Source of the DNA: Candidatus Iainarchaeum sp.
Lineage (GTDB): Archaea; Iainarchaeota; Iainarchaeia; Iainarchaeales; 0-14-0-20-30-16
NCBI GenBank assembly: GCA_028710695.1
Contig: JAQTTP010000001.1
Coordinates: 140,559 to 204,558, forward strand
DNA: 64,000 nt
Direction: 5' to 3'
Position numbers and translations under genes: made by a program. Below, in pieces: positions 11,928-59,274 of the stretch. Every line of letters starts with the position of its first letter. The first letter of the stretch is position 1. Under the pieces are notes generated by a model, which worked only from the letters and a program-made list of their open reading frames with translations, did no database searches and was not told where the DNA came from.

Positions 11928-12000
<73 letters not shown>

Positions 12001-12120
12001 CTATGCCTTTCTTTTTCCAAAAAAGAAAGCCGTAAGTTCCCACAAAGAAAAAGGAACAAACTATATTTTATAATGACAAAAAATTTATATTACAAAGGTT
12101 TTATTCTTATGTGATAAGGT

Positions 12121-12944: not shown

Positions 12945-12957
12945 TAAAAAGGCTGGA

Positions 12958-13031
12958 TGGGAAGAGAGGGATTTGAACCCTCGACACTTAGGTCTTCAGC
13001 CTAATGCTCTTCCGGACTGAGCTACCTTCCC
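12958..13031 (-). tRNA. tRNA-Phe (anticodon GAA)
   Basis: Reverse complement GGGAAGG-TA-GCTC-AGTCCGGAA-GAGC-A-TTAGG-CTGAAGA-CCTAA-GTGTC-GAGGG-TTCAAAT-CCCTC-TCTTCCC-A; canonical cloverleaf. Confidence 0.8.
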
Positions 13032-13145
13032 ACGATCCTTTTTTCTTTTTAAAAAGAAAAAAGCCTACGTTTGCCAAAAAAGAAAATGGCTTCGCGTAAA
13101 ACGAAAATAAGTAAGAATAACTAATGCTATTCTGTGTTTATTGGA

Positions 13146-18228: not shown

Positions 18229-18615
18229 ATGACAATATCATCCGGATTTGGATCAAAATATGGAAGAAAAATAAGAAGAAAATACGATAATGTTACACAA
18301 GGCTATAAATTCAAGAAACTAGTTTGTCCTTTTTGTGGAATGAAGAAAGTGACAAGAGAAGCTTCAGGGATATATGAATGCCTTTACTGTAAAAAGAAAT
18401 TTGCTGGTGGAGCATACGAAGTTGAAACAAGAATAGGAAAAACAATAAGAAGCTCAATGGCAAAGAAAAATGTGAAAGAATTAGAAGTATTTTTGGAAGA
18501 AGAAACAAAGATAGAAGATAAAGGCGAAAAAGAAGAAAAGGCTGAAAAAGAGGAAAAAGTAGACAAAAAAGAAAAAAAGCAAAAAAAAGAAAAAGCTAAA
18601 GAGAGTGAGGAATAA
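18229..18615 (+). CDS. rpl37ae: ribosomal protein L37Ae with K/E-rich C-terminal extension
   Basis: Zn ribbon CPFCG...CLYCKKKF; position in the superoperon. Confidence 0.85.
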   Translation: MTISSGFGSKYGRKIRRKYDNVTQGYKFKKLVCPFCGMKKVTREASGIYECLYCKKKFAGGAYEVETRIGKTIRSSMAKKNVKELEVFLEEETKIEDKGEKEEKAEKEEKVDKKEKKQKKEKAKESEE

Positions 18616-18752
18616 TGGTTGTCTATAAATGCATAAGATGCGGGGCAGAATTCGAGTCTTTAATAGATGGTGAAGTAAGATGCCCACAATGCGCCTTTAG
18701 AGTTATAGAGAAAAAGAGACAAAGATTTGCAAAGTCTGTAAAAGCAATATAA
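18615..18752 (+). CDS. rpoP: DNA-directed RNA polymerase subunit P (Rpb12/RpoP)
   Basis: 45-aa ORF MVVYKCIRCGAEFESLIDGEVRCPQCAFRVIEKKRQRFAKSVKAI with CxxC..CxxC. Its ATG overlaps the rpl37ae stop by 1 nt. Absent from the ORF track (<60 aa). Confidence 0.75.
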   Translation: MVVYKCIRCGAEFESLIDGEVRCPQCAFRVIEKKRQRFAKSVKAI

Positions 18753-18774: not shown

Positions 18775-19245
18775 ATGACTAATCTGATTACAACTTCAAG
18801 AAAGCCAGGAAGAAACCTGAGAAAGTTTGTTAGGCAGGTTTGTCCAATCTTTAATACTAAATATTTTGTTAGAGGGAAAACATCAGTAAAAGAACTTGCA
18901 GAATATTTGGAGTATGAAGGATATGACAAGTTGATTGTTGTATCTGAATTTAAAGGAAATCCGGGATCTTTGATAATTTACACAAGCAAAAATGGATTTT
19001 TTAAACAAGAAAGAAAATACAAAATTACTTATTACAAGCTTTCTGAGAAGAAGATGCAGTTCCCTAAATATGAAATAGAATTGGAAGACAAAGAAAACAA
19101 AGACTTTTTCAAATATCTGGGGACAGAAAATGAAAAAGTAGACGCAAAGATAATTGATGATAAGGGAATAATAAAAATAAAAAAAGGAAAAGATACATAT
19201 CTGAGTTTTAAGGTAGAAAAAGTGGTGGAAAAATGCCTGAAATGA
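18775..19245 (+). CDS. Brix-domain ribosome biogenesis protein (Imp4 family)
   Basis: LITTSRKPGRNLRKFVRQ..RGKTSVKEL Brix N-terminus; conserved superoperon position. Confidence 0.7.
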   Translation: MTNLITTSRKPGRNLRKFVRQVCPIFNTKYFVRGKTSVKELAEYLEYEGYDKLIVVSEFKGNPGSLIIYTSKNGFFKQERKYKITYYKLSEKKMQFPKYEIELEDKENKDFFKYLGTENEKVDAKIIDDKGIIKIKKGKDTYLSFKVEKVVEKCLK

Positions 19246-19457
19246 AGATTTTTATAACTGAGAATTTTAAAGATATATATAAAATAATAACTCAGGAGAA
19301 AGAGATTAATAGTAGAACAAAAACTGAGTTCAACCTGAAGAAAGACGGGTTGGAGATAGTAACAAAAGCAAAAGATTATGTTGCTTTAAGAGCAAATATG
19401 AACTCTCTTTTGCAGAAGCTTGCATTAATAAATAATACTTATTCGGAGAAGAGGTGA
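19233..19457 (+). CDS. small alpha/beta protein at the Pcc1 (KEOPS) position of the superoperon
   Basis: 74 aa at the position where COG2892/Pcc1 sits in archaeal superoperons. Assigned by context; the sequence itself was not diagnostic. Confidence 0.4.
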   Translation: MPEMKIFITENFKDIYKIITQEKEINSRTKTEFNLKKDGLEIVTKAKDYVALRANMNSLLQKLALINNTYSEKR

Positions 19458-19464
19458 ATAATTT

Positions 19465-19818
19465 ATGGATCAAAAAGAAATAATGGAATTTAATAACTAT
19501 AGTAACCAGATGAATATGCTTAATGCTCAAACTATGAACATAAAAGGAATGATGGATAAAATAAAAGAAAACATAGATGAGTTAAATAAAAGCAAGGAAA
19601 CACATGGTTACAAGAATTTGGGATTAGTTTTGATAAAGAAACCAAAGGCAGATTTGGTAAAAGAGTTAGAAGAAACTAAAAAGTCTTTAGACTTGAGATT
19701 AAAGACTATTGATAAGCAAGAGAAGATTGTTTCAGCAAAGTTAGAAGAACTTAAAGCTAAGTTCGAGTTAGAACAAAAGAAACAAGAAAAAGATGCTGAA
19801 AAGAAGGATAAGAAATAA
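19465..19818 (+). CDS. pfdB: prefoldin beta subunit
   Basis: Coiled-coil/beta-hairpin/coiled-coil layout (GYKNLGLVLIKKPKADLVKELEE), about 117 aa. Confidence 0.75.
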   Translation: MDQKEIMEFNNYSNQMNMLNAQTMNIKGMMDKIKENIDELNKSKETHGYKNLGLVLIKKPKADLVKELEETKKSLDLRLKTIDKQEKIVSAKLEELKAKFELEQKKQEKDAEKKDKK

Positions 19819-19873
19819 TTAAGATAAGAGTTTAGAAGTAAGGTATATTAATCCCTTACTCTATTTTTATATT

Positions 19874-20665
19874 ATGCCTAGAAAACAGCCACAAAAAATT
19901 GCAACAAAAAAACAATATGTTGCCCCTAAATGTATAGAACTCAGGGGGAAAGATGTAAGTATTTGGCAGACTAAAGAACGTAGAGATATGGTTCAGTGGA
20001 AATTAGAAACTGATCCACCAGATATTGCTAGAAGGCGGTTGGCACTTCTTGCTAAAGGTACAAAAAAATGCCTTGGGCAAAAAAATGTGACTATTTTTGT
20101 GAAAAATGTAACTCAAAAAGAATTAGATATAATTGATAAGTTAAGGAAAGCTGGAATATTTACAGAAATGCCTTTTGATTTTAAATTAAAAACTGCCGGC
20201 GGTCGTGAACGTGGGCCAATGGGCTTTTTAAATGCTGGTGAATCTTTTGCCAAGGCTACGATAAGGGCAAATAATGCAAAATTAAGAGCCATGTTTATGC
20301 CAGTAGCTGACATTATTGGGCAGATGCATGCTTTAGGTGTAGAGCACGGGCATGTGACTACAAGCAACGTTCACATCCATAATGGGCGCTTGTGTTTAGT
20401 TGATTTTTCAATAGCTGAACAACACTTAGTTGACTGGAATTCTGTGGGTAGTATCTATAATGCATTTGTAAGAGATTATACTACTAGAATAACAAGAAGC
20501 AAAAGCCAATATGCAAATATGACTTTTTGTAAAGAATTTTTCAGAAGAATGATTTCTCATTATCCTACATCAGAACAAATAAAAAGTGAATTAATTAATA
20601 AACTGAATAATGATTTGGAAAATTATAGATCCAGGGATTTATTGCCTTATCATGGGCCATGTTAA
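19874..20665 (+). CDS. Bud32/PRPK-like atypical kinase-fold protein with altered catalytic loop
   Basis: HGHVTTSNVHIHNGRLCLVDFSIAE aligns with the Bud32 signature HGDLTTSN....IDFGL, with D->H and DFG->DFS changes. Elevated GC. Confidence 0.5.
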   Translation: MPRKQPQKIATKKQYVAPKCIELRGKDVSIWQTKERRDMVQWKLETDPPDIARRRLALLAKGTKKCLGQKNVTIFVKNVTQKELDIIDKLRKAGIFTEMPFDFKLKTAGGRERGPMGFLNAGESFAKATIRANNAKLRAMFMPVADIIGQMHALGVEHGHVTTSNVHIHNGRLCLVDFSIAEQHLVDWNSVGSIYNAFVRDYTTRITRSKSQYANMTFCKEFFRRMISHYPTSEQIKSELINKLNNDLENYRSRDLLPYHGPC

Positions 20666-20676
20666 TTTGTAAGTTT

Positions 20677-21417
20677 TTATATTTTTATTTCTGTTTTTTT
20701 ACAGTTATCTAGGACAATTAGTTTTGTATTTTTTAACTTCTCTGAAGCTCTTTCTTTGAGTTTATCCATATTTGTTTTTATTAGAGAAAATGTGTTGTAG
20801 TGCATAGGTATTGTTACTTTGGGTTCTGTTTTCCTCGCAAAAGCAACGAATTCAAAAATATCCATTGTGAAAACTCCTCCGCAAGGAAGGATTGCAATAT
20901 CTACTTTTACATCTATGTTTTGGTCGTAGGTATCACCTGCAAAATATATGTCTTTTTCTTGGTATTTTAATAAAAATCCAACACTATACTGGGATTGTGG
21001 GTGTTGTGCAGGAACTACGATAACATCCATATTTGCGACCTTTATTTTATCATCTATTTTTATTGTTCTTTTTTGTGAGTTTTCAAGATCTAATTGGTTT
21101 GTTACTAATGATGGTGCAATAACTGGGCAATTATCCCTTTTTGCTAAAAATTCAACTGCACCTTTGTCAAAGTGGTCAAAGTGCTCGTGGCTAATAAAAA
21201 TTGCATCTAGTTTTGGAATTGCTTCTTTTGTTATTTCTAATTTTTCTGCTGCCTCAAAATTATCTGGGGCATTGCTTCCAAAGAAAGGATCAAAAAGAAT
21301 TGTTTTGTCAAAGAAGTTAATTAGAATAAAGCTGTGCCAGTATTTTGTAATATAAATCTTGTCTTGTGTGCACTCCTCTACTTTTTTAGGCATTAACTTT
21401 TTTAGAAGTTGAACCAT
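20677..21417 (-). CDS. metallo-beta-lactamase-fold hydrolase
   Basis: HxHxDH motif FISHEHFDHF; start trimmed to ATG 21417. Confidence 0.7.
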   Translation of the reverse strand: MVQLLKKLMPKKVEECTQDKIYITKYWHSFILINFFDKTILFDPFFGSNAPDNFEAAEKLEITKEAIPKLDAIFISHEHFDHFDKGAVEFLAKRDNCPVIAPSLVTNQLDLENSQKRTIKIDDKIKVANMDVIVVPAQHPQSQYSVGFLLKYQEKDIYFAGDTYDQNIDVKVDIAILPCGGVFTMDIFEFVAFARKTEPKVTIPMHYNTFSLIKTNMDKLKERASEKLKNTKLIVLDNCKKTEIKI

Positions 21418-21677
21418 AAAATATATTGGATGGAATAGCTTTAAAAACAACTTAGTTAATAATTATCATACTATAATGCCTTTTTTCACCGTTTTTACCT
21501 TAAATTACTTCGAAAATAGCCTCCCAAAGCCCCCTTTGCCAAAAGGTAACTTTTTTAAAGCAATGTCCTTCTATAATAATATATCTAATCACAAAGCAAG
21601 TTTTTCCGAACCGAAACTTCTTTAAGATTAAGACATTTCATAAGATAATTGGATTTTTTGATAAAAGGTGAATAAAA

Positions 21678-22306: not shown

Positions 22307-22729
22307 GTGATTATTGTGGTAGATACAAAGAATATTAAAGTTGGAATAAATGTAGTTGGAAAGCATAGAAAAAGAAGAGCAACATTTGCAATTAGATTTT
22401 TAAGAAAAGAAATCGAAAAGCACTTGAGAACTAAAGATTATGCTTTAGACAACAGCGTAAACAGTTTTGTTTGGAAAAGAGGAAAAGCAGAAAGCCCAAC
22501 ACAAGTTGATATGACTGTTTTAATGGAAAAAGTGCCAAGACTATTTTTGGCAAACTCTCCAGAGCTGAAAGCTTACTTAGAAAAAGGTAAAGAAAAGAAG
22601 GAAGCTAAAGAGAAGAAAGCAGAGCCAAAGAAAGAAGATAAAAAAGAAGAAGTAAAGAAAGAGCCTGCAAAAGAAGATGCTAAACCAAAAGTAAAAGCCC
22701 CTAAAAAAGAAGCAAAGAAGAAAGAATAA
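22307..22729 (+). CDS. rpl31e: ribosomal protein L31e with K/E-rich C-terminal tail
   Basis: KRRATFAIRFLRKEIEKHL...LDNSVNSFVWKRG L31e core. Confidence 0.8.
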   Translation: MIIVVDTKNIKVGINVVGKHRKRRATFAIRFLRKEIEKHLRTKDYALDNSVNSFVWKRGKAESPTQVDMTVLMEKVPRLFLANSPELKAYLEKGKEKKEAKEKKAEPKKEDKKEEVKKEPAKEDAKPKVKAPKKEAKKKE

Positions 22730-23971: not shown

Positions 23972-25225
23972 ATGTTCAAGTTGCTTAAGTCTGCATTTTC
24001 AAAAGTTGCAGACGTATTAAAATCAAAAAAAGAAGTTATAGAAACTCCTGCAGAAAAACCAGAAGAAACAAAGGTTGTTCCAAAAGAAGAACCTAAGCAA
24101 GAAATAAAGGCGGAACAAAAGAAAGAAGAAATAGTTAAAGCAGTAAAAGAAATAAAAAAAGAAAAGGAAAAACCAAAACAAAAAGAAATAAAGCCAAAGG
24201 AAGAACCTAAAGAGCAAAAGGTAGAAGAACCAAAAACAGAAAACAAAGACAAACCACAACTAAACAAAGAAGAGCCAACTCAAACCAAAGCAAAGGAAAA
24301 ACAGGATAAAGTTGTTGACAACCTACATGGCAGCAAAGAAAAAGAACTAGTTTCTGCCCCTTCTTTTAAAACAAAATTAAAATCTCTTTTTTCTGAAAAA
24401 ATATCTTTATCTGAAAATGATTTAAAAGATATAAAAGAAAAGTTTGAAATTGTTCTATTGCAAAGTGATTTTTCTGTTGAAATACTTGATTCTATTTTAA
24501 ATAATTTTATTGGAAAATTGAAGTTAGGAATTGAAAAGAAAAAGAATCTAGATTCTGAAATAAAAGAAAAATTCTTAGAAACTCTATTTGAGTTAGTTAC
24601 TTTAGATAAAGGTACATTATTTTCATTATCTGCAAAACCAGCAAAGATACTATTCGTTGGCCCAAATGGTTGCGGAAAAACAACAACTATTGCAAAGCTT
24701 GCAAAGATGATTTTAGATAACAAAAAGAGCGTTGTAATGGCAGCAGGCGATACTTTTAGGGCGGCATCTATAGAGCAGTTGAAAGAACATGCAAATAATT
24801 TAAAAGTACCAATTATTGCAGGGAATTATGGTAGTGACCCAACTTCTATTGCTTTTGATGCTGTAACTTTTGCAAAAAATAAAAATATTGATTATGTTTT
24901 AATTGATACTGCGGGAAGACAAGAAACAAATTCTTCTTTAATGAATGAACTAAAGAAAATGAAAAGAGTAATAAATCCAGATTTAGTGATTTATGTTGCA
25001 GAATCTATTGCTGGGCAGGCAGTTGTAAACCAAGTTAAGGAATTTGAAAAAGAAATTGGAGTTAATGCCTTTATTATTACAAAAGCAGACGTAGATTCAA
25101 AAGGCGGGACAGCTTTTTCTCTTAATATTTTCTTTAAGAAGCCAATATTATTCTTAGGAACTGGGCAAGGATATAAAGATTTAGTTCTATTTGAAAAAGA
25201 TGCTTTACAAGGTTTATTTGAGTGA
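23972..25225 (+). CDS. ftsY: signal recognition particle receptor FtsY
   Basis: K/E-rich N-terminal acidic domain. NG domain with LFVGPNGCGKTTTIAKLA (G1) and DTAGRQ (G3). Confidence 0.9.
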   Translation: MFKLLKSAFSKVADVLKSKKEVIETPAEKPEETKVVPKEEPKQEIKAEQKKEEIVKAVKEIKKEKEKPKQKEIKPKEEPKEQKVEEPKTENKDKPQLNKEEPTQTKAKEKQDKVVDNLHGSKEKELVSAPSFKTKLKSLFSEKISLSENDLKDIKEKFEIVLLQSDFSVEILDSILNNFIGKLKLGIEKKKNLDSEIKEKFLETLFELVTLDKGTLFSLSAKPAKILFVGPNGCGKTTTIAKLAKMILDNKKSVVMAAGDTFRAASIEQLKEHANNLKVPIIAGNYGSDPTSIAFDAVTFAKNKNIDYVLIDTAGRQETNSSLMNELKKMKRVINPDLVIYVAESIAGQAVVNQVKEFEKEIGVNAFIITKADVDSKGGTAFSLNIFFKKPILFLGTGQGYKDLVLFEKDALQGLFE

Positions 25226-41098: not shown

Positions 41099-42187
41099 AT
41101 GAAGAAATTGATTTGGATAGTTGGGCTATTATTGATTTTGGTGCTTGTTTTTGTAACATATTACTCTGTACAAAAAAATGCAATTACTGTGGGCGTAATA
41201 ATCCCCCTTTCTGGCTCTGTTGCTGATTTGGGTTTACAGTCAAAAAACGGATTTGATCTTGCAATAAATGAGGGCATAGAATTTGAATTTATTTTTGAGG
41301 ACTCTGTAGGAGACAAAACTGCAGCAATTAACGCTTATAATAAATTAGTATCTGCAGATAATGCAAAGATAATAATTTGTCAGTTGGGCGGGGTATGTGA
41401 TGCTTTGGCAGACATTGCTAAAGATAATGATGTTATTCTGTTAGGTCTGACGTCAAATGACGATTTTGCTGTAAAAGGAAAAAATATTTTTAATGTGAGA
41501 GCAAGTGGTTATGGTATTGGAAAAAGGCTTGCAGAATATTTAATAAAAGAAAATTATAATTCTGTTGCTGTTTTATATAATGAGGAACCAACACATGCCG
41601 CAATTTTTAAAGGATTTAAAAATTATTTTGAAGAAAAGGGCGGTAAAGTAGTTTACTCTGGTTTACATAAAAGTGATGAAAAAGAGTTTAAAACTGAATT
41701 GCTTAAGGCAAACAATGAAAAACCCGAAGGGTTTGTGTTATTTTCAAGATATGGAAACCTGATTAATATTATAAAACAAAAAGAAGAATTAGGAATAAAC
41801 TTGCCAATATTTTCTAATACTGGTGTTGAATCTAAAGAGTTTATTGATTCTCTTGGCCCACTTGCAAATGGAATAATCTTTTCAAGTGCTTCCTTTGACT
41901 ATGATTTAGATTCAGATAAAGTAAAATATTTTATTAGCTTACATGAAAAAATGTTTGGAACAGATATCATTCCATTTTATACTGCTAATGCCTATGAAGT
42001 TGTAGACCTATTAAATTACCTAAAAAGTAAAGGCTGTAACACAACAAAAGAAATAATTTCTTGTTTAGAAAATTTTGGGGGCTATGAAAGTGTATTGGGA
42101 AAAATCTCATTTGATTCTGATGGTGGCGTAATTAGAAACTACCTGATTTATCAAATACAAGATGGCGCATTTGTTAAATTAGAATAG
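41099..42187 (+). CDS. LivJ/LivK-type (type I periplasmic-binding-fold) solute-binding protein with N-terminal membrane anchor
   Basis: Signal anchor, then ITVGVIIPLSGSVADLGLQSKNGFDLAINE, the Peripla_BP_6 N-terminal signature. Confidence 0.75.
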   Translation: MKKLIWIVGLLLILVLVFVTYYSVQKNAITVGVIIPLSGSVADLGLQSKNGFDLAINEGIEFEFIFEDSVGDKTAAINAYNKLVSADNAKIIICQLGGVCDALADIAKDNDVILLGLTSNDDFAVKGKNIFNVRASGYGIGKRLAEYLIKENYNSVAVLYNEEPTHAAIFKGFKNYFEEKGGKVVYSGLHKSDEKEFKTELLKANNEKPEGFVLFSRYGNLINIIKQKEELGINLPIFSNTGVESKEFIDSLGPLANGIIFSSASFDYDLDSDKVKYFISLHEKMFGTDIIPFYTANAYEVVDLLNYLKSKGCNTTKEIISCLENFGGYESVLGKISFDSDGGVIRNYLIYQIQDGAFVKLE

Positions 42188-42541
42188 TTATTCTCTCCAT
42201 TCTGTGTCTTCTGAGAAATTGGCTTTTGTAACAAACAAAAGTAAACCTTGTTTTCCTGCTTTTACTTCATGCCACTCATTTGGCTTTACAATGAATAGAA
42301 CTCCTTGCTTTAGTTTTATAACTTGCTTTCCAGATTTAACAGAACCAGTTCCTTTTAGAACATATTCTGCTTCTTCTTGGCCTTTGTGATAATGTGGTCT
42401 TACAGTTGTGTTTGGCTTTATTTTTATATATTGTGTTTTGCAGAATTTTCCTTGCGCATTTTCTGTTGTCATGAATACTTTTCTAAAGTATCCATAATTT
42501 GTTTTTTGCCATTTCATCTTGCTTGGATTTATCTCTTGCAT
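42188..42541 (-). CDS. cupin-domain protein
   Basis: Cupin motifs PHYHKGQEEAEYVLKGTG and G..F.V.P.EWHEV. Confidence 0.65.
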   Translation of the reverse strand: MQEINPSKMKWQKTNYGYFRKVFMTTENAQGKFCKTQYIKIKPNTTVRPHYHKGQEEAEYVLKGTGSVKSGKQVIKLKQGVLFIVKPNEWHEVKAGKQGLLLFVTKANFSEDTEWRE

Positions 42542-42550
42542 ACTATCACT

Positions 42551-43510
42551 TTAGAAAGGTGCAAAGTTTAGTTTAAGTTCTTTTTTAATATCCAAAACAG
42601 AATAATTCTTTATGTATTGCGGGAAATAATTCTTGAATGATTTGATTATAAAATCTGTTTCATCATCACTTGCAGTTTCAATCTCTAATTCCACATTATG
42701 GCTTCCAATACAATTTACATAATACAAAATTGGTGGGTGCCCTTGTGCAAATATTTCCATGTCACGCAGAATCTTTTCGTTAAAGCTTTGTAATGTAAAT
42801 AGAATCATTTGGTATGTTCTACCTATTTTCTTTGGATCTATTGTAATCTTTGGCATTATTACTCCTAAGCTTTTTAGTTTTTTCATTCTGTTTCTTATTG
42901 TATCCGGTTTTATTTTTGTTTTTTTGCTTAATTCAATATAACTTGCACGTGCATTTAAGGCGAGGGCTTTAATGATCCTTTCATCTTTATTATCTATATT
43001 TACTATTTCTTGATCGCCTAAATAGATAAACTCTTTTTTTTCTATATTTTCTACTAAATAGGATCTAGTAAATAAAGGCGCTTTTGTTAAAATTACCAAG
43101 TCCTCGGAATAAATATATACTCCAAATTTATTTTTTAGTCCATTATAGAAATTTTTGTAATCTTTTAATTGTTTTGCTAAAAATGAGATAATATAATCAT
43201 AATTACCTCTTGTGGATACTGCCCAAAAAACGCCTTGTGTTTTTTTAATAAACTCCTCAAATTCTGCTTCTTTTTCAGAGTTGATGTTTTGTAACCGCAA
43301 AAATAGTTTGTAGTGTGTGTTTCCAAGTTTTGCTAAATTGACCATTAGCACAAATTTATCAATTATGTTATTTTTTTGTAGTCTTTCAATTCTATATGCT
43401 ACTGCCTGTTCAGATAGTTTGACTTTTTTAGCAATTTGCTTATTTGTTTGTCTACAATCTGCGTCAAGCTCATATAGAATTCTGTTGTCATACTTATCTA
43501 AAATCTGCAT
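42551..43510 (-). CDS. tandem Lrp/AsnC-family transcriptional regulator (two HTH-RAM units)
   Basis: Two repeats of the HTH_AsnC pattern (DNRILYELDADCRQTNKQIAKKVKLSEQAVAYRIERL.. and DERIIKALALNARASYIELSKKTKIKPDTIRNRMKKL..), each followed by a RAM-like domain. Confidence 0.7.
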   Translation of the reverse strand: MQILDKYDNRILYELDADCRQTNKQIAKKVKLSEQAVAYRIERLQKNNIIDKFVLMVNLAKLGNTHYKLFLRLQNINSEKEAEFEEFIKKTQGVFWAVSTRGNYDYIISFLAKQLKDYKNFYNGLKNKFGVYIYSEDLVILTKAPLFTRSYLVENIEKKEFIYLGDQEIVNIDNKDERIIKALALNARASYIELSKKTKIKPDTIRNRMKKLKSLGVIMPKITIDPKKIGRTYQMILFTLQSFNEKILRDMEIFAQGHPPILYYVNCIGSHNVELEIETASDDETDFIIKSFKNYFPQYIKNYSVLDIKKELKLNFAPF

Positions 43511-43636
43511 ATATTTGTATAATAACTAAAATATATATAAATATTTCTGTTTTATTCCAAATTTTATTAAAAGGCAATATATTGTCAGAAAAACCCAAGT
43601 TAAATATACTGGATAATACTAATTGGGGGTTTTCTA

Positions 43637-44749
43637 ATGAATAAAAATTATTTGTTTTTTGGAGTAATTGTAATAGTAATTCTTGCTCTGATAATTGGGT
43701 TTTCCATTGGTGGCAATAATGATACCTTAAAAGTGGGATTAGTTGCACCAATGAGTGGAGATGTTTCTATCTGGGGCACTAATGTTTTAGTTGGTGCACA
43801 AATTGCTATTGATGAGTTTAACGCCAAGGGCGGACTAAATGGGCAAAAGATAGAATTAATTGTTGAAGATGGGCAATGCTCTGCAGAAGCGGGGGCTAAA
43901 GCATATAGTGCTTTACTTAATGGTAATGATTTAGTTGCTATGCTTGGACCTGTTTGTTCTGCAGAGGCAAGTGCGGGATTGCCACAAGGGGTGGTAGCAA
44001 ATATGCCAACTGTAATTGCAACAGCATCTGCACCTGAGTTAACGGCTTTGGGAGACAATATATTTAGAGTGTATCCATCTGATACCTTGCAAGGTGGATT
44101 TGCTGCAGAATACGTATATAATGTTTTGGGAAAGAAAAAAGTTGCAATTATTTATGCAAGCAATGCTTGGGGTCAAGGTGTTGCAAATAATTTTAAAACG
44201 GCATATCAAAAATTGGGTGGTGAAATAGTTTATTTTGATAAAGTATCACAAGATGAAGTTGAGGTAAAAGATGTAATTAACAAATCAAAATCAACAAATC
44301 CAGATATGTTGTTTTTGCCAATATATCCTAAAACAATAATGGCAATATTAAAAACAAAAGATGAATTGAATTGGAATATTCCTGTATTGGGTGGGGATGC
44401 TACTCTTTCTGAAGAGGTTATTAAAAGTAATTTAGGAAATGAAATTTTGTTCACACAACCACAATTCAATATCTCTGAAGAACTAAAAGAAAAAGTAAAA
44501 AAGAAGAATGGGGAAAACTTTATGATAAATGTTGGTTCTTCATTTGGTTATGATGCTGCAATAGTTCTTTTGACTGCATTAGAAAATGCAGATTCCTTAA
44601 GTCACGAGGACGTAATAAAAGAATTGGCAAAGACAAAAATCAGCGGAATTTCAAATTCTGTAATTGAATTTGATGCAGAAGGAGATTTAAAAACAGGGAC
44701 TTTTGAAGTTCAAATAATAAAAAACAATCAAGCAATTCCGGCGGAATAA
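43637..44749 (+). CDS. LivJ/LivK-type solute-binding protein with N-terminal membrane anchor (paralog 2)
   Basis: LKVGLVAPMSGDVSIWGTNVLVGAQIAIDEFNAKGGLNGQKIELIVED..; C-terminus nearly collinear with paralog 3. Confidence 0.75.
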   Translation: MNKNYLFFGVIVIVILALIIGFSIGGNNDTLKVGLVAPMSGDVSIWGTNVLVGAQIAIDEFNAKGGLNGQKIELIVEDGQCSAEAGAKAYSALLNGNDLVAMLGPVCSAEASAGLPQGVVANMPTVIATASAPELTALGDNIFRVYPSDTLQGGFAAEYVYNVLGKKKVAIIYASNAWGQGVANNFKTAYQKLGGEIVYFDKVSQDEVEVKDVINKSKSTNPDMLFLPIYPKTIMAILKTKDELNWNIPVLGGDATLSEEVIKSNLGNEILFTQPQFNISEELKEKVKKKNGENFMINVGSSFGYDAAIVLLTALENADSLSHEDVIKELAKTKISGISNSVIEFDAEGDLKTGTFEVQIIKNNQAIPAE

Positions 44750-44770
44750 TTTCCGCCCCTCTTTTTTTAT

Positions 44771-45733
44771 TTAGAACGGAACAAAGTTTAGTTTTAATTC
44801 TTCTTTTACTGTAAGTACTGTATAGTTCTTTATATACTTGAAAAATTGTTTTCTGAAATCATTAATTATTTGCTCAGTTTCTTCATTGTTTTTTGTTTCC
44901 ATTTCTAATTCTATGTTGTGATTTCCAATACAATTAATATAGTAAATAATCTCTGGATATCTTGTTGCAAAAGACTGCATTTCTTTTTGTGTTCTTACAT
45001 CAAAACTCTGCAATGTTATTGTGGCCAAGGTATATGTTCTTCCAATCTTTTTTTCATCAATAGTTATTTTTGCTCCAGTTATTGCCCCGAGTTTTTTTAA
45101 TTTGTCATATCTGTTTTTGACTGTGTCGGGGGTTATCCCAGTGATTTTACCTAGTTCAATATAATTTAATCTTGCGCTGTTTCCTAACGCGTGTAATATT
45201 TTTTTGTCTTTTTCATCCAGTATTACCGTTTCTCTTATTCCCCCATATAATATTTCTCTTTTTTCTGGGCTGTTTTTTAGATATGATCTGTTAAGTAAAG
45301 TTCCGTGTGTAAGCAGAGAAAGTTCTTCAGAATAAACATATGGCCCCCAAATTTCTTTTATTTTGTCATACATCTCTTTATAATCTAATAAATCTTTTGC
45401 AAGATATGAAATCACGTAATCATACAAACCTAAAGTTTTTCCAGCCCAAAAAATATTGTCTTCTTTTTTAATATAATTTATGAACTCTTGCTCTTTTTCT
45501 GGCGATATATTTTGTAGTTTTAGATATAATTTATAATGTGTATAACCCATTCTTCGGGGGTTAGTCATAAGTACAAATTTTTTTATTACTCCTTCCTTTA
45601 GCATTTTGTCTATTCTATATGCTACTGTTTGCTCTGAAACCTTTGCTTTTTTTGCAAGTTGTTTATTGGTTTGTCTTGAATTTAGATCTAGTTCATAAAG
45701 TATAGAATAATCTGTAGGGGTTAAATTAATCAT
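44771..45733 (-). CDS. tandem Lrp/AsnC-family transcriptional regulator (paralog of 42551-43510)
   Basis: Same double HTH-RAM layout; ends ..EELKLNFVPF versus ..KELKLNFAPF in the paralog; start at ATG 45733. Confidence 0.7.
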   Translation of the reverse strand: MINLTPTDYSILYELDLNSRQTNKQLAKKAKVSEQTVAYRIDKMLKEGVIKKFVLMTNPRRMGYTHYKLYLKLQNISPEKEQEFINYIKKEDNIFWAGKTLGLYDYVISYLAKDLLDYKEMYDKIKEIWGPYVYSEELSLLTHGTLLNRSYLKNSPEKREILYGGIRETVILDEKDKKILHALGNSARLNYIELGKITGITPDTVKNRYDKLKKLGAITGAKITIDEKKIGRTYTLATITLQSFDVRTQKEMQSFATRYPEIIYYINCIGNHNIELEMETKNNEETEQIINDFRKQFFKYIKNYTVLTVKEELKLNFVPF

Positions 45734-45843
45734 AACATAGAATTTGTAGGCAAGATTTATTAAATATTTCGGAAATATTCTAAATTTGTCTGTTTGGTAC
45801 ATAAATATTCCTTATAATCAGAATGTAATTGGGGGTATCTATT

Positions 45844-46944
45844 ATGAATTTTAAAGCAGTTTTGTTTGGAGTAATAGCATTAATTATCTTGGCAGTAATA
45901 ATTGGTTTTTCTGTTGGTGGAGATAAAGATGTGATAAAGATTGGGATCATTGCACCACTGACTGGCGATATTGCAAGCTGGGGCCAAAATGGGCTTGCAG
46001 GAGTTGAATTGGCTGTAAAAGAAATAAATGACGCAGGCGGAATAAATGGATCTTTAGTTGAATTAATTGTTGAAGATGATAAAAGCACAGATGCAGTAAA
46101 TCCAGCAAATAAATTAATTAATATAGATAATGTGGATGCATTAATATTTGCGGGGGGTTCAAATCAAGCTCAACCAATAATACCAATAGTAACTGAAAAA
46201 CAAATTCCTTTGATTTTGACAGTTGCGTCTAATCCTGATCTTACTTTGTCATCTGATTGTGTATTTAGAGTTTATCCTTCTGATACTGCACAGGGGAAAT
46301 TTGCTGCAGAATATTTGTACAACAACCTTAATGTAAAAAACGTAGCAGTGATATATGAACAAAATCAGTGGGCAACAGGAGTAAAAGAGGTCTTTGAAAA
46401 AGGGTACAAAGGAACAATCGAAGAGGTAATTATTTTACAAAAATACCAACAAGATTTTAAGACTGAACTAACAAAATTGGATAGTCTTGACGTAAACTAT
46501 GTTTATGTTTTGGTATATCCTGAAACTGGAATGGCATTCTTAAACCAATACAAAACATTTGGATCTGACAAGAAAATATTTGGCGGAGATATGTTTGATA
46601 GTGGAGAATTAATAACAAGTGGATTTGCGGATGGGGTGTTATATACTGTGCCTAAAGTTACAACACCGGAATCTTTTAAAGAGGAAATAAAAACAATGCC
46701 TGCTTTTTCTACTTTAGAAATATCCTTGGCTGCGCCTTTGGGTTACGATGCAGCAAAGGTTCTGCTAACTGCTTTGGAAAATGTGGCTCCTTTAAGCTCA
46801 GAAAATTTGATAATTGAATTAAAGAAAACAAGTATTGCGGGAATGTCAAATTCTCTTATCGAGTTTGATAATCATGGAGATTTAAAAACCCCTGGGTTCG
46901 AAGTAAAAATGATAAATAACAAGGAAGCAGTTCCAGTTAAATAG
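45844..46944 (+). CDS. LivJ/LivK-type solute-binding protein with N-terminal membrane anchor (paralog 3)
   Basis: IKIGIIAPLTGDIASWGQNGLAGVELAVKEINDAGGINGSLVELIVED. The AATTGGGGG RBS region is shared with paralog 2. Confidence 0.75.
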   Translation: MNFKAVLFGVIALIILAVIIGFSVGGDKDVIKIGIIAPLTGDIASWGQNGLAGVELAVKEINDAGGINGSLVELIVEDDKSTDAVNPANKLINIDNVDALIFAGGSNQAQPIIPIVTEKQIPLILTVASNPDLTLSSDCVFRVYPSDTAQGKFAAEYLYNNLNVKNVAVIYEQNQWATGVKEVFEKGYKGTIEEVIILQKYQQDFKTELTKLDSLDVNYVYVLVYPETGMAFLNQYKTFGSDKKIFGGDMFDSGELITSGFADGVLYTVPKVTTPESFKEEIKTMPAFSTLEISLAAPLGYDAAKVLLTALENVAPLSSENLIIELKKTSIAGMSNSLIEFDNHGDLKTPGFEVKMINNKEAVPVK

Positions 46945-56886: not shown

Positions 56887-57390
56887 TTGTTGATTAGTAG
56901 AAAACCCTTAGCCAAAAGAAAGCCGCCAGTACCACAAGTAAGGCACATTGTTAAAAATGAAACAACAGTGGTGTATGCGGGTAGAAAAACCCCTTATGAA
57001 TTATGGGCTAAACGTAGAAATGCGGTATCAAAGATTCTTGGCTTTAAAGAAGCAGATAGGCAGTGGGATAGAGATTACTTTGGGCTTGCTGTCCCTCACC
57101 ATTTTGGTTCTTATGGGCAATTAGTTCTTAGACCTTGGTTCGTAGAAGGGAAAAGATTTGCATATGTTGAAGGTATAAGAGTAAAAGATTGGTACGAACA
57201 TAGAGGTCTTGCAACAAGGATGTATAAAAAAGCAGAAGAGATTGCAAGAAAACAGGGCTTGCCAGAAATTAGGGTTTGGTTGGTGAATAATATTGAAAGG
57301 CAAGAGAAGATTTTGACTGAACTTGGCTGGAAAGAATTTGCAAAATTAAGTGATAAAAATGGAAAAATGTGGAGTAAAATGTTGATTTAA
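56887..57390 (+). CDS. GNAT-family N-acetyltransferase
   Basis: GIRVKDWYEHRGLATRMYKKAEEIARKQG is GNAT motif A (R/Q-x-x-G-x-G/A); elevated GC. Confidence 0.6.
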   Translation: MLISRKPLAKRKPPVPQVRHIVKNETTVVYAGRKTPYELWAKRRNAVSKILGFKEADRQWDRDYFGLAVPHHFGSYGQLVLRPWFVEGKRFAYVEGIRVKDWYEHRGLATRMYKKAEEIARKQGLPEIRVWLVNNIERQEKILTELGWKEFAKLSDKNGKMWSKMLI

Positions 57391-58103
57391 CTCTTCGCAA
57401 TATTCCAAAGAAGCTCAAAGAAGTTTCTATTTGTTTCTACTGCTTTTTTGCTTTTTACAACAAATGCTAATGGTTGTTCTCCCCACACTATTGTGATAAA
57501 CTTGTCGCCATAAACCATGTTGGTTGAAGGATAATCATATTTTTCTGGAAGAAATTTCATTATGAAATTTTTTGTGGCTTCTTTAATTTTTTGCTTTTTT
57601 ATTTTTTTATTATAAATTATTTTTAGAATTATTTTTTTTAATTCTCTTTTTTGGTGCCATTTAACATAATAAACTGGAAATAGCTCTTTAAATCTGCTTT
57701 GTGCACCGAAAATAAAAATCTCTTTTGAATTTAAAGCATCGTCGAAGATAAATTTTATTCCTTTCTTGCCACGGAATATTGTTGCATTATCATCTTTTTG
57801 TGTATCATAATATGTAGACTTTAGTTCGCCTAGGATATCCATTAACTTATTCTGTTTTTCGTCAAGCATTTCTTCTAATATCTTTGGGTTATTTGGCTTA
57901 AACATTTTTACATTATTTTCTAGAACATAGCTTACTAGTCCTTTCTCTACAAGCCTTTCTAATGCATCGTAAACATTTGAGCGGTTTGCCTCGCACTTGT
58001 TTGTTATTTTACTTGCTTTTGCTTCTCCCAAAGAAAGCAAGGCGAGATAGACTTTTGATTCTGTCTCACTTAGTCCAAATTCTTGTAAAGTATTTTCTTG
58101 CAT
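57387..58103 (-). CDS. TrmB-family transcriptional regulator (paralog of 40274-41059)
   Basis: LSETESKVYLALLSLGEAKASKITNKCEANRSNVYDALERLVEKGLV wHTH; divergent from a fourth binding-protein gene. Confidence 0.65.
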   Translation of the reverse strand: MQENTLQEFGLSETESKVYLALLSLGEAKASKITNKCEANRSNVYDALERLVEKGLVSYVLENNVKMFKPNNPKILEEMLDEKQNKLMDILGELKSTYYDTQKDDNATIFRGKKGIKFIFDDALNSKEIFIFGAQSRFKELFPVYYVKWHQKRELKKIILKIIYNKKIKKQKIKEATKNFIMKFLPEKYDYPSTNMVYGDKFITIVWGEQPLAFVVKSKKAVETNRNFFELLWNIAKS

Positions 58104-58188
58104 ATAATTTGATAGTTACAAAATGTATTTATTGCTGTTGGTATGCCAACGACAAGTTAAGAAATACTTGAAAAGATAAAGTATTTAT

Positions 58189-59274
58189 ATGGGTAAAAAT
58201 ATTTTATTGGTGGTAGGAGTTGGATTTATTTTCGTGGCGGCTATAATCATTTTTGCCTTTATCTTTTCTGAGCCCGGAACTGCAATTAAAATTGGGGCAA
58301 TAATTCCTTTAACTGGTGATGTTTCTTATATGGGCCAGAGTATGAAAAATGGAATTGATTTGGCGTCTAAAGAAACAGGTTTGAAAGTTGTGTATGAAGA
58401 TTCACAAGGAAAAAAGGATGTTGCGGTAAATGCATATAATAAATTGACGCAACTTGATGGTGTGAATTATATTCTTGGGAGCCAAAGTGGAGTGATTTTG
58501 AGTTATTCTTCTCTTGCAAAAGAACAGAAGAAAATAGTTTTTGCAATTGGAACTGCAAGCCCAGGATTAACAAAAAATAATGATTATCTTTTTAGAAATA
58601 ATTTGTATACCGCAGAAGAAGCAGAATTTAATGCAAGGCAGATTTATAACTTGGGCTATAAAAATTTAGTCTTGTTGGCACACAACCAACCAGGTGGGGT
58701 GGATTATTTGAAAATAATTTCTGATAATTATGGTGGAAAAATAGAATTCCAAGAAATATTTTATAGTGCCCTGGACTTCAAAACAATTTTGAGCAAAATA
58801 AAAGATTCAAATGCTGATTCTGTGTTTGTATATTCCTATGCTTCTGAGCTAGCAGAGTTGTTAAAGGAAAGTTATGGTTTGGGATTAAATGTAAGATGGT
58901 TTAGCTTCTTTGCAATGGAAGAAAAAACAATTCATAACTTGCCATTGAATGTAAAAGAGGGTCTAGTTTACTCTTACCCAATAGATGATAAAAATCCAAA
59001 ATATTTAGAATTTCAAGAAAAATACTTTTCTGTGTATGGGGAATACCCTGACTTGTTTGCAGCGCTGGCTTATGATAATATTTTTATGTTAAAGCAAGCA
59101 ATGCAAGGTTGTGAATATGAAAACACAGATTGTGTGAAAGATAATTTGTTAGAGATAAAAGAGTTTGAGGGTGTAAGCGGGCTAACAAGTATAGATTCAG
59201 ATGGAGATTCCCACAAACCAATATATCTAAAAACAATTAAGGATGGAGAATTTGTAATGTTTGAAAATCAGTAA
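58189..59274 (+). CDS. LivJ/LivK-type solute-binding protein with N-terminal membrane anchor (paralog 4)
   Basis: IKIGAIIPLTGDVSYMGQSMKNGIDLASKE after a signal anchor. Confidence 0.75.
   Translation: MGKNILLVVGVGFIFVAAIIIFAFIFSEPGTAIKIGAIIPLTGDVSYMGQSMKNGIDLASKETGLKVVYEDSQGKKDVAVNAYNKLTQLDGVNYILGSQSGVILSYSSLAKEQKKIVFAIGTASPGLTKNNDYLFRNNLYTAEEAEFNARQIYNLGYKNLVLLAHNQPGGVDYLKIISDNYGGKIEFQEIFYSALDFKTILSKIKDSNADSVFVYSYASELAELLKESYGLGLNVRWFSFFAMEEKTIHNLPLNVKEGLVYSYPIDDKNPKYLEFQEKYFSVYGEYPDLFAALAYDNIFMLKQAMQGCEYENTDCVKDNLLEIKEFEGVSGLTSIDSDGDSHKPIYLKTIKDGEFVMFENQ

What the first reader, a model, noticed from the sequence alone, without database searches (positions are those of the whole stretch)
19874..20665. 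Bud32-like kinase-fold protein next to the Pcc1-position gene, with the catalytic Asp replaced by His
The segment HGHVTTSNVHIHNGRLCLVDFSIAE aligns with the KEOPS kinase Bud32 signature HGDLTTSN...IDFGL. The catalytic-loop Asp is His, and DFG is DFS. The gene follows the superoperon's Pcc1-position ORF and pfdB, and is visibly more GC-rich than its neighbours. It could be a pseudokinase KEOPS subunit, a regulator, or a horizontally acquired paralog.
Basis: partly seen in the sequence, partly recalled or inferred. Interest (0 to 1): 0.55.

Follow-up and report, generated by a model that had tools for sequence, protein, structure and literature searches.

The report
Bud32-like kinase family using His
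The gene is real and encodes a kinase-fold protein most similar to the tRNA-modification kinase Bud32, but it belongs to a distinct, unnamed, fast-evolving and sometimes duplicated family of DPANN (Iainarchaeum-type) archaea in which a histidine routinely replaces the catalytic aspartate, so it is probably a Bud32-derived paralog and not the standard KEOPS subunit.

Summary
ORF 19874-20665 (+, 263 aa) follows Pcc1 and prefoldin-beta at the end of the exosome/proteasome superoperon. It carries HGHVTTSN...DFS where Bud32 has HGDLTTSN...DFGL. Every alignment places His160 on the catalytic-loop Asp.

It is not a canonical Bud32. It scores 39 bits against a 125-bit cut-off. It has no Gly-rich loop and none of the Bud32 beta3-Lys/K.YR..LD block. 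It also lacks the RGRY tail whose Arg is essential for t6A.

An exhaustive profile search shows it is one member of a family of more than 100 sequence clusters. Across 82 members Asn165 and Asp177 are invariant, and the catalytic position is His in 71, Asp in 8 and Asn in 3. Profile-profile comparison to Bud32 gives 99.6% probability over alphaC plus the C-lobe only. An AlphaFold model (pLDDT 93) matches Bud32/PRPK and WaaP best.

The family occurs as tandem or nearby copies in some genomes. Its non-synonymous rate is 3-16 times that of its neighbours. Linkage to Pcc1-pfdB holds only in the closest clade, where a conserved palindrome precedes the start codon. GC3 is average, so horizontal transfer is not supported.

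I could not determine whether the same genome also has a canonical Bud32.

The parts
19874..20665 (+). Bud32-like kinase-fold gene, 263 aa, net charge +18; NCBI name 'lipopolysaccharide kinase InaA family protein'
   Evidence: ORF. Pfam Kdo PF06293, 26.3 bits. NCBIfam arch_bud32, 39.2 bits vs cut-off 125. AF2 pLDDT 93.3. Foldseek top hit 3en9 Kae1-Bud32.
19874..19933 (+). Basic N-terminal tail MPRKQPQKIATKKQYVAPKC; the motif [RK][RK]xYxKPxV recurs across the family
   Evidence: Alignments A4 and sequences. Absent from short paralogs P0006 and P0008.
19973..20149 (+). Remodelled N-lobe: two helices (aa 34-61), beta hairpin (aa 63-80, conserved T63, K/R65, K/R77), then alphaC (aa 81-92). No Gly-rich loop.
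   Evidence: AF2 secondary structure. Only Gly25, 62 and 68 in the first 80 aa. hhalign to Bud32 starts at aa 77. Column statistics.
20345..20368 (+). Catalytic loop HGHVTTSN: His160 (CAT, 20351-20353) replaces the catalytic Asp; Asn165 is invariant
20402..20410 (+). DFS, the DFG equivalent; Asp177 is invariant in 82/82 family members
20648..20662 (+). C-terminal tail YHGPC (clade motif Y-x-G-[PIF]-x) in place of the Bud32 RGRY tail
   Evidence: Alignments.
19838..19873 (+). Conserved palindrome GTAAGG-N9/10-CCTTAC with an A/T-rich loop centred about -26 from the ATG, followed by a T-tract. Candidate promoter with operator, and/or terminator of pfdB.
   Evidence: Stem invariant in five orthologous loci. 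Unique in the window with none expected. Present only upstream of pfdB-linked orthologs. Hairpin dG -11.4, z -2.2.
19233..19457 (+). Pcc1 (KEOPS subunit), 74 aa
   Evidence: PF09341, E 3.9e-7; NF011470, 24.6 bits.
19465..19818 (+). Prefoldin beta, 117 aa
   Evidence: PF01920 and TIGR02338.
20677..21450 (-). Convergent metallo-beta-lactamase-fold hydrolase; syntenic in all close relatives
   Evidence: PF12706, E 6e-21. Synteny.

Best explanation
The gene encodes a member of an unnamed kinase-fold family that is derived from, or sister to, the KEOPS kinase/ATPase Bud32. All four named members come from Iainarchaeum/Diapherotrites (DPANN) MAGs.

Shown: the alphaC helix and the whole C-lobe are homologous to Bud32. 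The Mg/nucleotide ligands Asn165 and Asp177 are invariant. The catalytic-loop Asp is replaced by His as a family trait. The first half of the N-lobe is rebuilt from helices plus a hairpin, with no Gly-rich loop. The Bud32 C-tail is missing. The family is duplicated within genomes and evolves several-fold faster than flanking housekeeping genes, yet remains under purifying selection.

Inferred: it still binds a Mg-nucleotide in the cleft. It works as a slow ATPase or nucleotide-dependent switch, with His160 standing in as general base or gamma-phosphate ligand (joined by His162 in most of the family). It contacts an RNA or protein partner through its very basic surface and N-terminal tail. It is an accessory paralog, and a canonical Bud32, possibly fused to Kae1, should exist elsewhere in the genome. 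In this clade the gene was parked behind Pcc1-pfdB and has its own conserved palindromic control element.
For: Homology to Bud32: NCBIfam arch_bud32 is the best hit for the target (5e-10) and for 76 of 82 family members. hhalign family vs canonical Bud32 gives 99.6% probability, E 8e-24, over aa 77-246. Foldseek top hits are 3en9 (Mj Kae1-Bud32), WaaP, At Bud32 and PRPK.

Distinct family: 159 cluster representatives at E<1e-3 and 53 at E<1e-10. The HGHPHxxN...IDF[KS] motif is seen. The family forms a separate clade from canonical Bud32 in a rough NJ tree, with Asp-retaining members mostly basal.

Not canonical: 39 bits vs the 125-bit cut-off. 64 bits to a canonical-Bud32 HMM, against 280-290 bits for real Bud32s. 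No GAEA loop, K.YR..LD block or RGRY tail.

Literature: Bud32 D451A and tail R530D each abolish t6A synthesis (PMC11621456).

Paralogy within genomes: tandem P0011+P0008 in L013, a partial second copy in L005, and a second copy in L015.

Fast evolution: dN 0.19 vs 0.012-0.063 for neighbours. At the RadA-linked site the flanking genes are 81-97% identical while the kinase copies share 34-43%.

Selection: dN/dS 0.19.

Own control element.
Against: No canonical Bud32 or Kae1 was found in the window or in any fetched locus. However, only about 6% of a roughly 1-Mb genome was visible, so the paralog claim is indirect. The conserved position immediately after Pcc1 in the near clade, and a Cgi121 gene 1.8 kb from a family member in L014, could mean the protein does serve KEOPS. 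Nucleotide binding is inferred only from two invariant residues. The usual ATP-anchoring Lys and the Gly-loop are not identifiable, and position 77 is Arg in 48 of 82 members. The tree has no support values and is rooted by assumption.
Confidence: 0.6

Rival explanations
1. It is the lineage's only Bud32: a highly divergent ortholog that still works in KEOPS with Kae1, Pcc1 and Cgi121, with His160 acting as the general base for ATP hydrolysis.
For: Bud32 is the closest family by sequence and fold. The gene directly follows Pcc1 in all close relatives. No canonical Bud32 was seen in the sequence available. The literature treats Bud32 as universal in archaea (PMC10989989). Metal-binding Asn and Asp are invariant.
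Against: It lacks the catalytic Asp and the invariant tail Arg, both individually essential for t6A. It lacks the N-lobe elements shared by all canonical Bud32s, including a DPANN (Woesearchaeota) one. It is multi-copy in some genomes. Its dN is 3-16 times that of its neighbours. The Pcc1 linkage is lost outside the nearest clade and is never with Kae1.
Confidence: 0.25
2. It is a catalytically dead pseudokinase that acts purely as a scaffold or binding module and does not turn over nucleotide.
For: The catalytic Asp is missing, there is no Gly-rich loop, and the beta3 position is mostly Arg across the family. Rapid sequence change is typical of binding modules.
Against: Asn165 and Asp177 are strictly invariant in 82 of 82 members despite about 20-25% overall identity. 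His158, His160 and His162 are strongly conserved. This argues for a functional active-site chemistry, not a vestigial pocket.
Confidence: 0.2
3. It is a small-molecule (LPS/Kdo-type) kinase, as the NCBI name 'InaA family' implies.
For: Pfam PF06293 Kdo scores above its gathering threshold (26.3 vs 21.3 bits). WaaP is the second-best structural hit.
Against: Canonical Bud32s also list PF06293 first, so this hit is not specific. The Kdo kinase NCBIfam model gives only E 0.014. Archaea of this type make no LPS (general knowledge). Kdo/WaaP kinases keep the catalytic Asp.
Confidence: 0.04
4. It is a recently horizontally acquired gene inserted at the end of the superoperon.
For: Total GC is slightly higher than in the flanking Pcc1 and pfdB genes.
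Against: GC3 is exactly average (z -0.09) and the excess lies at codon positions 1 and 2. Synteny persists down to 51% identity. All named relatives are from the same archaeal lineage.
Confidence: 0.03

Closest known systems
Bud32 / PRPK (TP53RK), the KEOPS kinase/ATPase (TIGR03724, PRK14879; PDB 3EN9, 4WW5, 6WQX, 8K20)
   Same: Small atypical kinase fold. alphaC plus C-lobe are homologous (hhalign 99.6%). Catalytic-loop context HG-x-[VL]TTSN. Mg-binding Asn and DF-Asp. The VD[WL] and Y(P) C-lobe positions align. Encoded next to Pcc1 in this clade.
   Different: His instead of the catalytic Asp. No GAEA Gly-loop, no beta3 Lys-x-Arg and no K.YR..LD block. An extra basic N-terminal tail and two extra helices. 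No RGRY tail. Never adjacent to or fused with Kae1 in the loci seen. Multi-copy and fast-evolving. Scores far below every Bud32 model cut-off.
Kdo/WaaP lipopolysaccharide kinase family (Pfam PF06293; PDB 6DFL)
   Same: Passes the Pfam gathering score. Similar minimal kinase fold (Foldseek E 3.4e-6, TM about 0.5).
   Different: Those enzymes keep the catalytic Asp and act on LPS core sugars, which these archaea do not make. The match is the same generic one that true Bud32 proteins give.
RIO kinases (Rio1/Rio2), ribosome-biogenesis ATPases
   Same: Small atypical kinase-fold ATPases of archaea with N-terminal helical extensions. A ribosome/RNA-processing gene neighbourhood would suit an analogous role.
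   Different: Only marginal profile similarity (E 0.013 for the target; 12 of 82 members hit Pfam RIO1). RIO kinases have the catalytic Asp and an IDxxQ metal loop.
Eukaryotic pseudokinases lacking the HRD Asp (for example HER3 with HRN, JAK JH2, MLKL)
   Same: Kinase fold with the catalytic base substituted while nucleotide-binding residues are partly kept (from general knowledge, not tested here).
   Different: Unrelated lineages. None is known to me with a conserved His at this position, or with an H-x-H-x-H catalytic loop.

Membership tests
KEOPS Bud32 (TIGR03724 / PRK14879 / PRK09605) | Score above the curated model cut-off | tested here: not met
   39.2 bits vs 125. The other Bud32 models give 17-35 bits vs 174-447. 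The target scores 64 bits to my canonical-Bud32 HMM, against 280-290 bits for true Bud32s.
KEOPS Bud32 (TIGR03724 / PRK14879 / PRK09605) | Bud32-type kinase fold with a homologous C-lobe | tested here: met
   hhalign 99.6%, E 8e-24, aa 77-246. Foldseek top hits are 3en9_A, 8k20_B, 6wqx_C and 4ww5_A, TM 0.46-0.59.
KEOPS Bud32 (TIGR03724 / PRK14879 / PRK09605) | Catalytic-loop Asp (H-x-D-L-T-T-S-N; Mj D451), essential for t6A | tested here: not met
   His160 is at that column. It is conserved in orthologs and in 71 of 82 family members. Essentiality of the Asp: PMC11621456.
KEOPS Bud32 (TIGR03724 / PRK14879 / PRK09605) | Mg-binding Asn and DFG Asp | tested here: met
   Asn165 and Asp177 are invariant in 82 of 82 members.
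KEOPS Bud32 (TIGR03724 / PRK14879 / PRK09605) | N-lobe Gly-rich loop (GAEA), beta3 Lys-x-Arg and the K.YR...LD block | tested here: not met
   These are invariant in 17 canonical Bud32s. They have no aligned counterpart in the family. Residues 1-80 contain only three isolated Gly. The model shows helices there.
KEOPS Bud32 (TIGR03724 / PRK14879 / PRK09605) | C-terminal RGRY tail with the invariant Arg (Mj R530) | tested here: not met
   The target ends ...LLPYHGPC and the clade motif is Y-x-G-[PIF]-x. Canonical tails are shown. Essentiality.
KEOPS Bud32 (TIGR03724 / PRK14879 / PRK09605) | Genomic or physical association with Kae1 | tested here: inconclusive
   No Kae1 in the window or in the 19 loci fetched (15 of them distinct). 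The Kae1 query sequence was recalled from memory. Only fragments of the genomes were visible. A physical complex is not testable with these tools.
KEOPS Bud32 (TIGR03724 / PRK14879 / PRK09605) | Single-copy, conserved core gene | tested here: not met
   Tandem or nearby paralogs in L013, L005 and L015. dN is 3-16 times that of neighbouring genes.
Pfam PF06293 Kdo/WaaP | Score above the gathering threshold | tested here: met
   26.3 vs 21.3 bits. Canonical Bud32s match the same model, so this is superfamily-level only.
RIO kinases | RIO domain profile match | tested here: not met
   No Pfam RIO1 hit for the target. NCBIfam Rio1 gives E 0.013, 14.9 bits vs 480.
Pseudokinase (operational definition: kinase fold lacking at least one of beta3 Lys, catalytic Asp, DFG Asp) | Missing catalytic Asp | tested here: met
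   His160. Whether activity is actually lost is not testable here.
Anti-phage defence kinases (PADLOC PD-T4-6, MkoA, mad6, Stk2) | Specific profile match and defence-system context | tested here: not met
   Only 17-18 bits over the catalytic loop for the target. There are no defence genes nearby.

The most novel reading that the evidence does not exclude
The family may be a kinase fold whose chemistry has been rebuilt around histidines. In most members His160 and His162 sit beside the invariant Asn165 and Asp177. This could make an ATPase or phosphotransferase that runs through a phospho-histidine or His-base mechanism, or a transition-metal site that does non-kinase chemistry. In addition, the family would be a DPANN-specific, rapidly diversifying paralog set spun off from the universal KEOPS subunit Bud32, possibly tuning tRNA or ribosome-linked processes or symbiont-host interactions.
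Probability: 0.15. Interest if true: 0.8.

Novelty: new variant of a known kind. Interest (0 to 1): 0.55.

Why it matters
Bud32 is treated as a universal, single-copy and essential partner of Kae1 in Archaea and Eukarya. A sizeable sister or derived family that systematically swaps the catalytic Asp for His, rebuilds the ATP lid, drops the tRNA-contacting tail, duplicates and evolves quickly has no Pfam or NCBIfam model of its own, and I found no paper describing it in the library searched.

If it is a paralog, it is a natural experiment in how an ancient ATPase switch gets re-used in reduced DPANN genomes. If it is the only Bud32 in these organisms, then two residues shown to be essential for t6A synthesis are dispensable in nature, which would change the current KEOPS mechanism. 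Either way, the NCBI label 'lipopolysaccharide kinase InaA family' is misleading for these archaeal proteins.

Tried and rejected
1. A structure prediction from the 4-sequence alignment gave pLDDT 58 and was discarded in favour of the 82-sequence model.

3. The search for homologous proteins with the family alignment returned almost only the near clade because of the word-index limit.

4. The genome-collection scan failed with the broad alignment. With the narrow one it found only two loci. The metagenome scan found four loci, two of them new.

5. I tried to show a canonical Bud32 in Iainarchaeia by naming canonical hits (only one name, Woesearchaeota) and by a canonical-Bud32 profile search (the 120 listed hits are mostly unnamed metagenome proteins, and the few named ones are Bathyarchaeia or Asgard-type lineages). 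Neither was informative.

6. Walking along the contig from the end genes of the window failed because no exact product was on record.

7. Supplements of the two KEOPS-distribution papers list only Pcc1/Pcc2 for Diapherotrites.

8. tRNA identity elements: tRNA-Thr(GGU) has U36-A37-A38 and the GCU/AGC-G26 D-arm, but the non-substrate tRNA-Phe has the same D-stem, so the test does not discriminate.

9. PADLOC and PHROG matches are generic kinase-loop similarity only.

10. The horizontal-transfer reading was rejected on GC3.

11. The sigma-70 promoter/terminator scanner was not used because it does not apply to archaea.

Full report
OBSERVATION

It ends the archaeal exosome/proteasome superoperon, which reads here psmA, SBDS, Rrp4, Rrp41, Rrp42, L37ae, RpoP (45-aa ORF at 18615-18752), Brix, Pcc1, pfdB and then the target. 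Only three of these neighbours were profile-tested: Pcc1 (19233-19457; PF09341, E 3.9e-7), prefoldin beta (19465-19818; PF01920, TIGR02338) and Brix, which gave no Pfam hit. The other names rest on reading the translations and on Pfam labels for the homologous genes in L001.

The peptide HGHVTTSN...VDFSIAE is present (nt 20345-20368 and 20402-20410; His160 codon CAT). The source is an NCBI MAG labelled Candidatus (I)ainarchaeum sp., on a 238-kb contig, where the protein is named 'lipopolysaccharide kinase InaA family protein'.

IS HIS160 REALLY AT THE CATALYTIC ASP?

Yes. Single-sequence and profile searches of PDB sequences align GVEHGHVTTSN with GVIHRDIKSDS of PAK4, with KSR, and with HGDLTTSN of plant, human and archaeal Bud32/PRPK. 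In every case His160 falls on the HRD/HxD Asp. Profile-profile alignment against 17 canonical Bud32 sequences does the same.

HGH and DFS are conserved in independent assemblies at 72%, 62% and 54% identity. dN/dS against the 72-73% identical orthologs is 0.19. This rules out a sequencing error or a decaying pseudogene.

WHAT FAMILY IS IT?

Pfam gives only PF06293 (Kdo/WaaP), 26.3 bits against a gathering score of 21.3. That explains the NCBI name. Genuine Bud32 proteins list the same Pfam model first, so the hit is at superfamily level only.

NCBIfam ranks Bud32 models first (arch_bud32 5e-10), but at 39 bits against a 125-bit cut-off.

An exhaustive profile search of 1.84 billion cluster representatives found 159 hits at E<1e-3 and 53 at E<1e-10. 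Aligning them showed that most are 210-270-aa proteins with HGHPHxxN...IDF[KS]. Canonical Bud32 (HGDLTTSN...IDFGL) appears only from E about 3e-7 downward.

In an 82-member alignment, Asn165 and Asp177 are invariant. His158 is present in 77 of 82. Position 160 is His in 71, Asp in 8 and Asn in 3. Position 162 is His in 66. Trp188, Phe198, Asp201 and Tyr230 are each conserved in 75 or more members.

76 of the 82 members hit arch_bud32, all far below the cut-off. hhalign of the family against canonical Bud32 gives 99.6% probability, E 8e-24, but only over aa 77-246, that is alphaC plus the C-lobe.

The canonical N-terminal hallmarks are the GAEA Gly-loop, the beta3 Lys-x-Arg and the K.YR...LD block. 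All are invariant in the canonical set and none has a counterpart here. The first 80 residues of the target contain three isolated glycines.

The canonical RGRY tail is replaced by ...YHGPC. A recent structural study shows that both the HxD Asp (Mj D451) and the invariant tail Arg (R530) are individually required for t6A synthesis (PMC11621456).

STRUCTURE

With the 82-sequence alignment, AlphaFold2 gives pLDDT 93.3 and pTM 0.88. The model has a basic N-terminal tail, two helices (aa 34-61), a beta hairpin (aa 64-67 and 73-80) leading straight into alphaC (aa 81-92), and then a Bud32-sized C-lobe.

The best Foldseek matches in the PDB are the M. jannaschii Kae1-Bud32 fusion (3en9, E 2.5e-6), WaaP, Arabidopsis Bud32, human PRPK and yeast Bud32, with TM 0.46-0.59. 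I could not inspect coordinates, so the identity of any ATP-anchoring basic residue (Lys61, Lys65 or Lys77) is inference only.

DISTRIBUTION, CONTEXT AND TEMPO

The four members that carry an organism name are all from Iainarchaeum/Diapherotrites MAGs. Other contigs carry archaeal markers such as TFIIB, RadA, Spt4, L35Ae and S8e.

The order Pcc1, pfdB, kinase and then a convergent MBL hydrolase is conserved in every near relative, down to 51% identity. Members at about 30% identity lie elsewhere: between UbiA and RadA, or beside a HAD hydrolase and SAM synthetase. None is next to Kae1. One lies 1.8 kb from a Cgi121 gene, separated from it by two genes on the opposite strand.

The family is duplicated within genomes. 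P0011 and P0008 are tandem in L013. L005 has a second partial copy, and L015 has a second, more distant copy.

It evolves fast. Between the window and L011, dN is 0.191 for this gene, against 0.063 (Brix), 0.025 (Pcc1), 0.012 (pfdB) and 0.042 (MBL). At the RadA-linked site the flanking genes are 81-97% identical, while the kinase-like genes share only 34-43%.

In a rough neighbour-joining tree rooted on canonical Bud32, the family is a separate clade. Asp-retaining members lie mostly near its base, and the target's DFS clade is nested in the His-bearing crown. The tree has no support values.

COMPOSITION

The gene's GC is 0.350, against a window ORF mean of 0.322 (sd 0.028). GC3 is 0.242 against 0.246. 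There is no signal of recent transfer.

UPSTREAM ELEMENT

The 55-nt spacer after pfdB contains GTAAGG-TATATTAAT-CCCTTAC followed by TCTATTTTTATATT and then the ATG. The 6-bp arms are invariant in five orthologous loci, even where the coding sequence is only 51% identical. The A/T-rich loop varies.

The palindrome is unique in the window, with none expected by chance. Among the fetched loci it occurs only upstream of the pfdB-linked orthologs. The loop is centred about 26 nt before the ATG, which is the usual place of an archaeal TATA box for a leaderless mRNA (general knowledge). As RNA it forms a modest hairpin (dG -11.4, z -2.2) followed by a T-tract.

It is therefore either a promoter with an overlapping palindromic operator, or the terminator of the superoperon, or both. 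Either way, the gene is not simply another cistron of the Pcc1 operon.

INTERPRETATION

Shown: this is a Bud32-related kinase fold with invariant metal ligands and His at the catalytic-base position as a family trait. It has a rebuilt N-lobe and no Bud32 tail. It is multi-copy, evolves fast and is under purifying selection.

Inferred: it is a Bud32-derived accessory paralog that still binds Mg-nucleotide and acts as a slow ATPase or switch, with His160 (plus His162 in most members) replacing Asp/Lys-type contacts to the gamma-phosphate or water. The very basic protein (net charge +18) and its N-terminal tail may contact RNA or a partner.

The main rival is that this is the lineage's only, extremely divergent Bud32. 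I could not exclude it, because neither the rest of this genome nor any complete Iainarchaeum genome was reachable. No canonical Bud32 or Kae1 lies in the 64-kb window or in the 19 loci fetched. Attempts to find a named canonical Bud32 from this lineage failed. I put the paralog reading at about 0.6-0.65 and the sole-ortholog reading at about 0.25.

NOVELTY

No Pfam or NCBIfam model is specific for the family, and literature searches found no description of a Bud32 paralog family or of a His-for-Asp Bud32. I rate it a new variant of a known kind, of moderate interest.

Noticed in passing
window 19838-19873: Palindrome GTAAGG-N9-CCTTAC plus a T-tract directly upstream of the target ATG. It is better conserved than the coding sequence across orthologous loci, unique in the window, and its A/T-rich loop lies about -26 from the ATG (candidate TATA box with operator, or terminator).
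   Followed up: partly
window 18615-18752 (+): A 45-aa zinc-ribbon ORF (MVVYKCIRCGAEFES...CPQCAFRV...) between L37ae and Brix. It matches the position of the RpoP/Rpb12 gene (Zn_ribbon_RPAB4) called in L001. A small gene like this is easy to miss.
   Followed up: partly
L013 5540-7358; L005 1-1097; L015 5882-6688 and 10001-10780: Tandem or nearby within-genome duplicates of the His-type kinase family. At the UbiA-RadA site, different genomes carry one or two copies that share only 34-43% identity although the flanking genes are 81-97% identical.
   Followed up: partly
L014 12506-13114: A Cgi121 (KEOPS subunit) gene lies 1.8 kb from a family member (P0031) in assembly GCA_053535995.1, separated by TFIIB and S8e genes on the opposite strand. 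This may be coincidence or a weak KEOPS link.
   Followed up: no
window 20677-21450 (-): A metallo-beta-lactamase-fold hydrolase lies convergent to the target. It is syntenic in all close relatives and also lies near the family member in L015. Its function is unknown.
   Followed up: no
window 41099-46944 and 57387-59274: Four paralogous putative solute-binding lipoproteins (N-termini ...IGxIxPLTGD...), each next to a helix-turn-helix regulator gene. The homologous pair in L015 is annotated Peripla_BP_6 plus AsnC-type HTH.
   Followed up: no
window 18229-18615, 22307-22729, 23972-25225: Several housekeeping proteins (L37ae, a second putative ribosomal protein, and a putative FtsY/SRP-receptor GTPase; names read from the translations, not profile-tested) carry long Lys/Glu-rich low-complexity extensions.
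   Followed up: no
window 11928-12001 (-) and 12954-13032 (-): tRNA-Thr(GGU) and tRNA-Phe(GAA). The Thr tRNA has the U36-A37-A38 t6A acceptor motif. Both tRNAs share the GCUC/GAGC D-stem with a purine at position 26. The ARAGORN boundaries for tRNA-Thr appear to include one extra base at each end.
   Followed up: partly
protein P0005: One database 'homolog' is a chimera. Its first ~110 residues are this kinase family, followed by ribosomal protein L11-like sequence (PF00298), probably an assembly or frameshift artefact.
   Followed up: no
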